Shown here: piece by piece, positions 16,901 to 19,900 of the stretch
Numbering within the stretch: position 1 is the stretch's first letter
How the letters are laid out: every line of letters begins with the position of its first letter
Source of the DNA: Escherichia coli O127:H6 str. E2348/69
GTDB taxonomy: Bacteria > Pseudomonadota > Gammaproteobacteria > Enterobacterales > Enterobacteriaceae
Length of the DNA stretch: 64,000 nucleotides
Direction: 5' to 3' (one strand)
NCBI RefSeq assembly: GCF_000026545.1
Contig: NC_011601.1
Position numbers: made by a program

Positions 16901-19900
16901 CTGCAAAAAAAGATCTTCGATCCCTTTTTCACTACCAAAGCCTCAGGAACCGGGCTTGGTCTGGCGTTAAGTCAACGCATCATTAATGCCCATCAGGGTG
17001 ATATTCGCGTCGCCAGTTTGCCGGGCTACGGCGCAACCTTCACGCTTATTTTACCGATCAACCCGCAGGGAAATCAGACTGTATGACTGCTATTAATCGC
17101 ATCCTTATTGTGGATGATGAAGATAATGTTCGCCGTATGCTGAGCACCGCTTTTGCACTACAAGGATTCGAAACACATTGTGCGAACAACGGGCGCACAG
17201 CATTACACCTGTTTGCCGATATTCACCCTGACGTGGTGTTGATGGATATCCGCATGCCAGAGATGGACGGCATCAAGGCACTAAAGGAGATGCGCAGCCA
17301 TGAGACCCGGACACCCGTTATTCTGATGACGGCCTATGCTGAAGTGGAAACCGCCGTCGAAGCACTACGCTGCGGAGCCTTCGACTATGTTATCAAACCG
17401 TTTGATCTCGATGAGTTGAATTTAATCGTTCAGCGCGCTTTACAACTCCAGTCAATGAAAAAAGAGATCCGTCATCTGCACCAGGCACTGAGCACCAGCT
17501 GGCAATGGGGGCACATTCTCACCAACAGCCCGACGATGATGGACATCTGCAAAGACACCGCCAAAATTGCCCTTTCTCAGGCCAGCGTCTTGATTAGCGG
17601 TGAAAGCGGCACCGGGAAAGAGTTGATTGCCAGAGCGATTCACTACAATTCGCGGCGGGCAAAGGGGCCGTTCATTAAAGTCAACTGCGCGGCACTGCCG
17701 GAATCGTTGCTCGAAAGTGAACTGTTTGGTCATGAAAAAGGTGCATTTACTGGTGCACAAACCTTGCGTCAGGGATTATTTGAACGTGCCAACGAAGGTA
17801 CTCTGCTCCTCGACGAAATTGGCGAAATGCCGCTGGTACTGCAAGCCAAATTACTACGCATTCTGCAGGAACGGGAATTTGAACGGATTGGCGGCCATCA
17901 GACCATAAAAGTTGATATCCGCATCATTGCTGCCACCAACCGCGACTTGCAGGCAATGGTGAAAGAAGGCACCTTCCGTGAAGATCTCTTTTATCGCCTT
18001 AACGTTATTCATTTAATACTGCCGCCTCTGCGCGATCGCCGGGAAGATATTTCCCTGTTAGCTAATCACTTTTTGCAAAAATTCAGTAGTGAGAATCAGC
18101 GCGATATTATCGACATCGATCCGATGGCAATGTCACTGCTTACCGCCTGGTCATGGCCGGGAAATATTCGAGAGCTTTCCAACGTTATTGAACGCGCCGT
18201 CGTGATGAATTCAGGCCCGATCATTTTTTCTGAGGATCTTCCGCCGCAGATTCGTCAGCCAGTCTGTAATGCTGGTGAAGCAAAAACAGCCCCTGTCGGT
18301 GAGCGTAATTTAAAAGAGGAAATTAAACGCGTCGAAAAACGCATCATTATGGAAGTGCTGGAACAACAAGAAGGAAACCGAACCCGCACTGCTTTAATGC
18401 TGGGCATCAGTCGCCGTGCATTGATGTATAAACTCCAGGAATACGGTATCGATCCGGCGGATGTATAACGCCAAAACTTGCTATGCAGAAATTTGCACAG
18501 TGCGCAATTTTCTGCATAGCCGCTCATTCTCCTTATGAATCCCCATCTAATTTATCCTTTTCTATTCAATTAGTTAAATAACAACATTCAATAATCTCAT
18601 TCTGGCACTCCCCTTGCTATTCCCTGACTGTACCCACAACGGTGTATGCAAGAGGGATAAAAAATGAAAACAAAATTGATGACATTACAAGACGCCACCG
18701 GCTTCTTTCGTGACGGCATGACCATCATGGTGGGCGGATTTATGGGGATTGGCACTCCATCCCGCCTGGTTGAAGCATTACTGGAATCAGGTGTTCGCGA
18801 CCTGACATTGATAGCCAATGATACCGCGTTTGTTGATACTGGCATCGGTCCGCTCATCGTCAATGGTCGAGTCCGCAAAGTGATTGCTTCACATATCGGC
18901 ACCAACCCGGAAACAGGTCGGCGCATGATATCTGGTGAGATGGACGTCGTTCTGGTGCCGCAAGGTACGCTAATCGAGCAAATTCGCTGTGGTGGAGCTG
19001 GACTTGGTGGTTTTCTCACCCCAACGGGTGTCGGCACCGTCGTAGAGGAAGGCAAACAGACACTGACACTCGACGGTAAAACCTGGCTGCTCGAACGCCC
19101 ACTGCGCGCCGACCTGGCGCTAATTCGCGCTCATCGTTGCGACACACTTGGCAACCTGACCTATCAACTTAGCGCCCGCAACTTTAACCCCCTGATAGCC
19201 CTTGCGGCTGATATCACGCTGGTAGAGCCAGATGAACTGGTCGAAACCGGCGAGCTGCAACCTGACCATATTGTCACCCCTGGTGCCGTTATCGACCACA
19301 TCATCGTTTCACAGGAGAGCAAATAATGGATGCGAAACAATGTATTGCGCGCCGTGTGGCGCAAGAGCTTCGTGATGGTGACATCGTTAACTTAGGGATC
19401 GGTTTACCCACAATGGTCGCCAATTATTTACCGGAGGGTATTCATATCACTCTGCAATCGGAAAACGGCTTCCTCGGTTTAGGCCCGGTCACAACAGCGC
19501 ATCCCGATCTGGTGAACGCTGGCGGACAACCGTGCGGCATTTTACCCGGTGCAGCCATGTTTGATAGCGCCATGTCATTTGCGCTAATCCGTGGCGGTCA
19601 TATTGATGCCTGCGTGCTCGGCGGTTTGCAAGTAGACGAAGAAGCAAACCTCGCGAACTGGGTAGTGCCTGGGAAAATGGTGCCCGGTATGGGTGGCGCG
19701 ATGGATCTGGTGACCGGGTCGCGCAAAGTGATCATCGCCATGGAACATTGCGCCAAAGATGGTTCAGCAAAAATTTTGCGCCGCTGCACCATGCCACTCA
19801 CTGCGCAACATGCGGTGCATATGCTGGTTACTGAACTGGCTGTCTTTCGTTTTATTGACGGCAAAATGTGGCTCACCGAAATTGCCGACGGGTGTGATTT

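What the first reader, a model, noticed from the sequence alone, without database searches (positions are those of the whole stretch)
18480..18618. Complete AtoSC - sigma54 regulatory module upstream of atoDAEB
A 41 bp near-perfect palindrome (the AtoC enhancer site) lies about 85 nt upstream of a TGGCAC-N5-TTGC sigma54 promoter, which in turn precedes atoD. Together with intact atoS and atoC this indicates a functional acetoacetate/short-chain fatty acid utilisation switch. It is well known, but the sequence evidence is unusually clean.
Basis: partly seen in the sequence, partly recalled or inferred. Interest (0 to 1): 0.2.

Follow-up and report, generated by a model that had tools for sequence, protein, structure and literature searches.

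The report
Known AtoC enhancer and sigma54 promoter
This is the textbook control region of the E. coli acetoacetate-utilisation operon (AtoC binding palindrome, bend site, sigma-54 promoter), present here intact and base-for-base identical to the experimentally characterised K-12 elements, so it is real but ordinary.

Summary
A 41-bp palindrome (18480-18520; 20+1+20, 18/20 complementary) lies 82 nt upstream of TGGCAC-N5-TTGC (18603-17617 read as 18603-18617), which lies 46 nt upstream of the atoD ATG (18664). The window is E. coli E2348/69. The two half-sites are letter-for-letter the published, footprinted/ChIP-verified AtoC sites of K-12, at the same distances from atoD. The -24 GG and -12 GC are intact. 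atoS, atoC, atoD, atoA, atoE and atoB are all full length with catalytic residues in place. Conservation supports function: across E. coli, a divergent Escherichia and five Citrobacter species the palindrome (76% invariant columns) and the -24/-12 element (73%; all nine specified bases invariant) stand out from spacers that are 4-7% invariant. In 3,923 E. coli genomes the palindrome is identical in 90% and the core promoter in 98.5%, against 13% for a control spacer. "Functional" is inferred, not shown; wild-type E. coli responds to acetoacetate, not to butyrate. Already known; low interest.

The parts
15260..17086 (+). atoS, sensor histidine kinase (608 aa; HAMP-PAS-HisKA-HATPase_c; H-box HEVRNP with H398)
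   Evidence: NCBIfam NF008468 AtoS equivalog 994.6 bits vs cut-off 646; Pfam domains; full length, 6 aa differences from K-12, no internal stop; annotated atoS in E2348/69
17083..18468 (+). atoC, sigma-54-dependent response regulator / enhancer-binding protein (461 aa; REC D55, AAA+ Walker A GESGTGKE at 173, GAFTGA at 220, HTH_8 at 415-454)
   Evidence: NF008469 AtoC equivalog 1003.4 bits vs 714; Pfam Response_reg + Sigma54_activat + AAA_lid_14 + HTH_8; 2 aa differences from K-12 (A151T, V400A)
18480..18520 (.). AtoC enhancer (UAS): 41-bp palindrome, half-sites 18480-18499 and 18501-18520, axis at 18500
   Evidence: unique, far beyond chance; identical to published AtoC sites and to K-12; 31/41 columns invariant in 8 orthologous regions; identical in 3542 of 3923 E. 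coli genomes
18564..18576 (+). IHF-like site ATTCAATTAGTTA (8 of 9 specified consensus positions)
   Evidence: match itself not beyond chance: 61 vs 55 expected in window; but kept at -38 to -40 from TGGCA in all 8 orthologous regions inside an otherwise unconserved spacer. IHF requirement for atoDAEB is recalled from Matta et al. 2007, which could not be opened
18603..18617 (+). sigma-54 promoter TGGCAC-N5-TTGC (-24 GG at 18604-18605, -12 GC at 18616-18617)
   Evidence: identical to K-12; all 9 specified bases invariant in 8 orthologous regions; 30-bp core identical in 3864 of 3923 genomes; no sigma-70-like promoter in 18300-18800; RpoN holoenzyme binds the atoC-atoD spacer in K-12 by genomic SELEX (PMC8743547)
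18626..18663 (+). atoD leader (predicted start of transcription about 18626-18630; Shine-Dalgarno GAGGG 18652-18656); conserved block with CTGTACCC (18628-18635) complementary to Spot 42 nt 4-11
   Evidence: 23/38 columns invariant; 8-nt exact complement to spf taken from K-12; atoD listed as a Spot 42 target (PMC6127932). Start site is inferred from -12 spacing and from remembered numbering of Matta et al. 2007
18664..19326 (+). atoD, acetate/acetoacetate CoA-transferase alpha subunit (220 aa)
   Evidence: NF007394 444.7 bits vs 315; identical protein to K-12
19326..19976 (+). atoA, CoA-transferase beta subunit (216 aa)
   Evidence: TIGR02428 305.6 bits vs 243.55; full length
19973..21295 (+). 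atoE, short-chain fatty acid transporter (440 aa)
   Evidence: TIGR00366 747.3 bits vs 575.75; full length
21326..22510 (+). atoB, acetyl-CoA acetyltransferase (394 aa)
   Evidence: TIGR01930 493.8 bits vs 240.55; full length, 8 aa differences from K-12

Best explanation
[quoted passage not shown] Proposed sequence of events: acetoacetate activates AtoS, which autophosphorylates on H398 and transfers the phosphate to D55 of AtoC. Phospho-AtoC assembles on the 41-bp palindrome (18480-18520), centred 104 bp, about ten helical turns, upstream of the -24 GG. IHF bound at about 18564-18576 bends the spacer so that the AAA+ ring of AtoC, through its GAFTGA loops, touches sigma-54 RNA polymerase held in a closed complex on TGGCAC-N5-TTGC (18603-18617). 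ATP hydrolysis opens the promoter and transcription starts near 18626-18630, giving a 35-38-nt leader followed by atoD, atoA, atoE and atoB. Shown here: presence, uniqueness, identity to the characterised K-12 sites, intact genes and catalytic motifs, and purifying selection on the palindrome, the IHF-like box, the -24/-12 element and the leader. Inferred from the K-12 literature and from the general mechanism of sigma-54 activators: binding, looping, ATP-dependent opening, the inducer, and activity in this strain.
For: Palindrome and promoter exist and are non-random. Half-sites equal the published AtoC sites at the published distances from atoD, verified there by ChIP (PMC3118216). Palindrome and -24/-12 are 100% identical to K-12 while 11 substitutions fall elsewhere in the 195-bp intergenic region. 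Eight orthologous regions (E. coli x2, divergent Escherichia, five Citrobacter): invariant columns 42/56 in palindrome plus -24/-12 versus 7/80 in spacers, Fisher p = 1e-15. Substitutions in the palindrome are mirrored in both arms (G8A in both arms of L005; A12T in Citrobacter), keeping dyad symmetry. Palindrome-centre to GG distance is held at 104-107 bp, and -12 to ATG is constant at 48. Population: palindrome identical in 90%, core promoter in 98.5%, control spacer in 13% of about 3,900 E. coli genomes. AtoS/AtoC/AtoD above equivalog cut-offs with all motifs. No sigma-70-like promoter in the region. RpoN holoenzyme binds this spacer in K-12 in vitro (PMC8743547). The same gene order atoS-atoC-[TTTGCGCA-GG-TGCGCAA palindrome]-[TGGCAT-N5-TTGC]-atoDAE recurs in a Nitrospiraceae MAG, and a similar palindrome plus promoter follows atoS-atoC in a Deltaproteobacteria MAG.
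Against: No experiment on this strain. AtoS carries 6 and AtoC 2 substitutions relative to K-12 of unknown effect. The sigma-54 motif alone is only weakly beyond chance in 64 kb, and the IHF-like match alone is not beyond chance. The primary paper with the footprint, start site and IHF data (Matta et al. 2007, PMC1951910) could not be read, so the start site and the IHF requirement rest on memory. rpoN, ihfA and ihfB are outside the window.
Confidence: 0.95

Rival explanations
1. The palindrome acts mainly as an RNA hairpin at the 3' end of the atoSC transcript (terminator or 3'-end stabiliser), starting 12 nt after the atoC stop codon, rather than, or in addition to, being a protein-binding enhancer.
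For: As RNA, 18480-18520 folds into a long hairpin; the 101-nt segment has MFE -25.5 kcal/mol, z = -5.6, with 0 of 200 shuffles as stable. It lies just after the atoC stop (18468). Mirrored substitutions in both arms would also preserve a stem.
Against: No T-run follows the stem, and the terminator scan finds nothing on the + strand there. One arm position (18: A in the left arm, G in the right-arm complement) is asymmetric in all 8 orthologues, a conserved A.C mismatch in a stem, which selection for pairing would not keep. Published ChIP shows AtoC on these exact sequences. A secondary role in stabilising the atoSC mRNA is not excluded.
Confidence: 0.1
2. The module is sequence-intact but silent or altered in this strain, for example because of the AtoS/AtoC substitutions or strain-specific trans factors, so that it is not a working switch.
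For: Function was not tested. The ato cassette is dispensable in E. coli: about 28% of complete genomes lack it entirely, and others carry decayed copies (IS5 in the -12 element with atoS frameshift and atoC stop; IS1 deletion).
Against: All six ORFs are full length with catalytic residues. AtoD is identical to K-12, and dN is far below dS (e.g. atoE 32 nt differences but 1 aa; atoC 15 nt but 2 aa). The cis elements are identical to the functional K-12 ones. This is the pattern of a gene set under purifying selection.
Confidence: 0.05
3. Chance co-occurrence of a palindrome and a -24/-12-like motif with no regulatory role.
For: The -24/-12 pattern alone occurs at least once in 16% of shuffled windows.
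Against: The palindrome has an expectation of about 0.001. Both elements are conserved across genera in an otherwise unconserved spacer, and they are identical to experimentally verified sites.
Confidence: 0.002

Closest known systems
E. coli K-12 atoDAEB promoter with its AtoC palindromic enhancer (Matta et al. 2007; Pilalis et al. 2011, PMC3118216)
   Same: Same locus in another strain. The palindrome (41/41) and the -24/-12 element (15/15) are identical, at the same distances to atoD, with the same flanking genes rcsC-atoS-atoC-atoDAEB-yfaP.
   Different: 11 substitutions in non-site positions of the 195-bp intergenic region, including C18622 (G in K-12) just downstream of the -12 element. 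There are 19 amino-acid differences in total across the six proteins.
NtrB-NtrC / glnAp2 paradigm of sigma-54 enhancer activation
   Same: Same protein architecture (REC-AAA+-Fis-type HTH), dyad-symmetric upstream sites about 100 bp from a GG-N10-GC promoter, and TGCA-containing half-sites.
   Different: Different signal (acetoacetate versus nitrogen status) and a different site sequence. One 41-bp composite palindrome with an IHF-like site in the spacer; glnAp2 does not need IHF (general knowledge).
PrpR / prpBCDE and ZraSR sigma-54 systems of enterobacteria
   Same: A carbon-source or stress-specific bEBP encoded next to its target operon, sigma-54 promoter, and IHF dependence for prp (PMC2965739 citing Palacios and Escalante-Semerena).
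   Different: PrpR has no receiver domain and senses 2-methylcitrate directly. AtoC is a two-component response regulator and scores well below the cut-offs of those families.

Membership tests
Sigma-54 (-24/-12) promoter | GG and GC dinucleotides exactly 10 bp apart within TGGCAC-N5-TTGCW | tested here: met
   CTGGCACTCCCCTTGCT at 18602-18618; exact pattern match
Sigma-54 (-24/-12) promoter | Correct strand and short distance upstream of the regulated gene, with no competing sigma-70 promoter | tested here: met
   + strand; -12 GC lies 48 nt before the atoD ATG in all 8 orthologues; 0 sigma-70-like sites in 18300-18800
Sigma-54 (-24/-12) promoter | Conservation of the specified bases in orthologous regions | tested here: met
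   TGGCA and TTGC invariant in 8/8 sequences; 30-bp core identical in 98.5% of 3,923 E. coli genomes
Sigma-54 (-24/-12) promoter | Binding by RpoN holoenzyme and rpoN-dependent transcription | not testable with these tools
   Literature only: gSELEX peak in the atoC-atoD spacer of K-12, whose promoter sequence is identical (PMC8743547)
AtoC enhancer (bEBP upstream activating sequence) | Sequence equals the experimentally defined AtoC half-sites | tested here: met
   GCTATGCAGAAATTTGCACA (+) and GCTATGCAGAAAATTGCGCA (-) at -184..-165 and -163..-144 from atoD, exactly as in Table 5 of PMC3118216
AtoC enhancer (bEBP upstream activating sequence) | Dyad symmetry beyond chance, about 80-150 bp upstream of the -24 element | tested here: met
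   18/20, expectation 0.001; centre 104 bp from GG; 104-107 bp in orthologues
AtoC enhancer (bEBP upstream activating sequence) | AtoC binding in this strain | not testable with these tools
   Needs ChIP, EMSA or footprinting
AtoS-AtoC two-component system (NtrB/NtrC type) | Equivalog-level HMM match and complete domain set with catalytic residues | tested here: met
   AtoS 994.6 bits vs 646, AtoC 1003.4 vs 714; H398, D55, Walker A, GAFTGA, HTH_8
atoDAEB operon | Four co-directional, tightly packed, full-length genes for CoA-transferase alpha and beta subunits, transporter and thiolase | tested here: met
   same lengths as K-12 (220, 216, 440, 394 aa)
IHF binding site | Match to WATCAANNNNTTR between enhancer and promoter | tested here: inconclusive
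   One mismatch; such matches occur at chance frequency in the window (61 vs 55), but this one is positionally conserved in 8/8 orthologues
Intrinsic (Rho-independent) terminator | GC-rich stem-loop followed by a T-run | tested here: not met
   Stable hairpin but no T-run; not called by the terminator scan

The most novel reading that the evidence does not exclude
The most novel reading left open is that the 41-bp 'palindrome' is more than a simple two-half-site operator. It carries four GCA/TGC motifs spaced 9-10 bp apart (18485, 18495, 18504, 18514), all on one helix face. It has an inner core (TTTGCRCA-N1-2-TGCGCAA) conserved as far as Nitrospirota and Desulfobacterota AtoC orthologues. One asymmetry (TGCACA versus TGCGCA) is fixed in all enterobacterial copies. 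This could mean an oriented assembly platform for two AtoC dimers, possibly doubling as a 3' hairpin for atoSC mRNA. About 10% of E. coli carry a core variant (C18496T), which could tune inducibility.
Probability: 0.12. Interest if true: 0.25.

Novelty: already known. Interest (0 to 1): 0.08.

Why it matters
It matters little as a discovery, because the element, its protein, its sigma factor and its physiology were described in K-12 years ago. Its value is as a positive control. A tool-free reader located a real enhancer-promoter pair to the base, and phylogenetic and population footprinting recover exactly the experimentally defined sites, plus the IHF-like box and a Spot 42-complementary leader. 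The practical implication is that E2348/69 should be able to induce atoDAEB with acetoacetate, unlike the roughly 28% of E. coli (for example O157:H7) that lack the whole cassette.

Tried and rejected
(1) I tried to open the primary paper (Matta et al. 2007, PMC1951910) for the start site, footprint and IHF data; it is not held. Other held papers gave no start-site coordinates. (2) Whole-length RNA duplex prediction between the atoD leader and Spot 42 was uninformative, no better than shuffles (261 of 500 as good). I replaced it with a simple seed-complement search. (3) repeat finder with max_distance 12 missed the palindrome because of how distance is measured, so I used my own exhaustive scan. 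(4) The intrinsic-terminator reading was rejected for lack of a T-run and because of a conserved stem mismatch. (5) The minus-strand ORFs overlapping the region (18255-18527, 90 aa; 18597-19055, 152 aa) were treated as shadow ORFs of atoC and atoD; they are not annotated in E2348/69 or K-12. (6) No Rfam family matches the region.

Full report
What is in the sequence. Reading 18300-18800 shows the atoC stop codon at 18466-18468. Twelve bases later lies GCTATGCAGAAATTTGCACA-G-TGCGCAATTTTCTGCATAGC (18480-18520). An AT-rich spacer follows, then CTGGCACTCCCCTTGCT (TGGCAC-N5-TTGC at 18603-18617), and then the atoD ATG at 18664, preceded by GAGGG (18652-18656). The repeat finder reports the two 20-nt arms as 90% complementary with one base between them. 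An exhaustive scan of the window for 20-nt-arm palindromes with loops of 0-5 nt finds this as the only one with at least 18 matches. The analytic expectation is about 0.001, and none of 100 simulated windows had one. The sigma-54 pattern occurs once in the window on either strand (expected 0.19; 16% of shuffles have at least one), so on its own it is only weakly significant. The gap between the two elements is 82 nt, and the distance from palindrome centre to the -24 GG is 104 bp.

Where the window comes from. The 501-bp region is 100% identical to E. coli E2348/69. The whole 64-kb window is colinear with NZ_CP059840.2 1685095-1749094 (reverse strand), apart from one SNP and one 2-bp indel. 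The gene order is rcsC, atoS, atoC, atoD, atoA, atoE, atoB, yfaP, as in K-12.

Identity with the characterised element. Pilalis et al. (PMC3118216, Table 5) list the experimentally verified AtoC sites of K-12. These are GCTATGCAGAAATTTGCACA (+ strand, -184 to -165 from the atoD start) and GCTATGCAGAAAATTGCGCA (- strand, -163 to -144). They describe the pair as the palindrome that controls acetoacetate inducibility and AtoC binding in vivo. Those are exactly 18480-18499 and the reverse complement of 18501-18520, at exactly those distances from 18664. Aligned with MG1655, the 195-bp intergenic region has 11 substitutions. None falls in the palindrome or in the -24/-12 element. Genomic SELEX in K-12 places an RpoN-holoenzyme site in the atoC-atoD spacer (PMC8743547). 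No sigma-70-like promoter is found in the region.

The trans-acting genes and the operon. AtoS (608 aa) and AtoC (461 aa) exceed the NCBIfam equivalog cut-offs (994.6 vs 646; 1003.4 vs 714). AtoD, AtoA, AtoE and AtoB also match their families above cut-off. All six have the K-12 lengths and no internal stops, and substitutions are mostly synonymous (atoC 15 nt / 2 aa; atoE 32 nt / 1 aa; AtoD protein identical). AtoS keeps the H-box histidine H398. AtoC keeps D55, H73, Walker A (GESGTGKE, 173), GAFTGA (220) and a Fis-type HTH. From memory, the classical constitutive allele of atoC is I129S. This AtoC differs from K-12 only at A151T and V400A, so it should be the inducible wild type.

Independent evidence of function from comparison. 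A scan of species-representative genomes with AtoC returned a divergent Escherichia (90% AtoC identity) and five Citrobacter species (83-86%), all with atoD downstream. In the 8-sequence alignment the intergenic region has diverged heavily, but four islands remain: the palindrome (31/41 invariant columns), an ATTCAA-N4-5-TTA box (6/13), the -24/-12 element (11/15, with all nine specified bases invariant) and the leader (23/38). The spacers between them are 3/43 and 1/26 invariant. Sites versus spacers gives Fisher p = 1e-15. Changes within the palindrome are mirrored in both arms: G8 to A in both arms of the divergent Escherichia, and A12 to T in Citrobacter. The centre base flips between G and C. 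One asymmetry (TGCACA on the left, TGCGCA on the right) is fixed in all eight. The centre-to-GG distance stays at 104-107 bp, and the -12-to-ATG distance is constant. Within E. coli, the palindrome is identical in 3,542 of 3,923 genomes, with the rest differing at 1-2 positions. The 30-bp core promoter is identical in 3,864 of 3,923. A 41-bp control from the spacer is identical in only 491 of 3,718. Further afield, a Nitrospiraceae MAG has atoS-atoC (both above the equivalog cut-offs) followed by a TGCGCA-rich imperfect palindrome, TGGCAT-N5-TTGC and atoD-atoA-atoE. A Deltaproteobacteria MAG has atoS-atoC followed by CGCAAATTTTTGCGCA-GG-TGCGCAAGAATTAGCG and TGGCAT-N5-TTGC. So the inner core of the E. 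coli site is old.

Mechanism. The best-supported account is the standard one for a two-component bacterial enhancer-binding protein. Acetoacetate acts through AtoS (H398) to phosphorylate AtoC (D55). AtoC oligomerises on the palindrome, and the DNA is bent at the IHF-like box (18564-18576). The GAFTGA loops contact sigma-54 RNA polymerase on 18603-18617, ATP hydrolysis opens the complex, and transcription starts near 18626-18630. What is shown here is presence, identity, intactness and selective constraint. The biochemical steps are taken from the K-12 literature and the general sigma-54 mechanism. The IHF requirement and the start-site numbering (-146 to -107 for the footprint) are my recollection of Matta et al. 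2007, which I could not open. The IHF-consensus match alone is at chance frequency; only its positional conservation argues for it.

Rivals. As RNA the palindrome would form a stable hairpin just after atoC (z = -5.6). However, there is no T-run, and a mismatch is conserved in all orthologues. A terminator role is therefore unlikely, though a minor role in stabilising the atoSC 3' end cannot be excluded. A silent-but-intact module is possible in principle, because the cassette is dispensable in the species, but the pattern of purifying selection argues against it.

The module should confer acetoacetate-inducible expression. Wild-type E. coli does not grow on butyrate unless atoC is constitutive (PMC2965739). 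rpoN and ihfAB are not in the window.

Verdict. Interest is low; the region mainly serves as a clean positive control for enhancer-promoter detection and for footprinting by comparison.

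Noticed in passing
window 18626-18663 (core 18628-18635): The atoD leader is far more conserved across Escherichia and Citrobacter (61% invariant) than the promoter spacers. It contains CTGTACCC, an exact 8-nt complement of Spot 42 nt 4-11. atoD is listed as a Spot 42 target in PMC6127932. In Citrobacter only GTACCC (6 nt) is kept.
   Followed up: partly
window 15094-22583 (whole atoSC-atoDAEB cassette): The cassette is accessory in E. coli. 3,898 of 5,426 complete genomes carry at least 80% of it. The rest (e.g. O157:H7, O145) keep only the first 76-79 nt after rcsC and run straight into yfaP, so regulators and operon are present or absent as one 7.3-kb unit.
   Followed up: partly
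L085 (E. coli 23AR1101), equivalent to window 18614-18617: An IS5-family element (ISKpn26) is inserted inside the -12 TTGC with a CTTG target duplication. The same strain has a frameshifted atoS and an internal stop in atoC. This may be a decaying module, or IS-driven AtoC-independent expression of atoDAEB.
   Followed up: partly
L086 (E. coli 600055), equivalent to window about 18342 onward: An IS1-associated deletion removes the atoC 3' end, the enhancer and promoter, atoDAEB, and yfaP through most of yfaA.
   Followed up: no
window 18496: About 10% of E. coli genomes differ from the window by 1-2 bases in the AtoC palindrome. In strain 042 the change is C18496T, turning the inner core TGCACA into TGTACA. 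The effect on AtoC binding is unknown.
   Followed up: partly
L011:5383-5506 and L012:5375-5533: AtoS-AtoC orthologues in a Nitrospiraceae MAG and a Deltaproteobacteria MAG are followed by TGCGCA-core palindromes and TGGCAT-N5-TTGC promoters. In L011 atoD-atoA-atoE follow. In L012 the downstream 440-aa ORF has no NCBIfam match.
   Followed up: partly
window 8300-8393 (+): MicF sRNA (Rfam 116.8 bits) lies upstream of ompC, as expected for this locus.
   Followed up: no
window 12054-12130 and 12168-12244 (-): Two tandem naRNA4/REP-type repeats (Rfam RF02564), 93% identical to each other, sit immediately 3' of rcsC.
   Followed up: no
window 269-313: The second-best palindrome in the window (16/20, 5-nt loop) lies near the eco/mqo end. 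It was not examined.
   Followed up: no
window 34392 and about 47379; 52540-52948: Relative to assembly NZ_CP059840.2 the window has one SNP (34392) and a 2-bp indel in the glpA-glpT intergenic region (about 47379). Two 178-bp direct repeats (96% identical) lie beside the ISNCY transposase gene.
   Followed up: no
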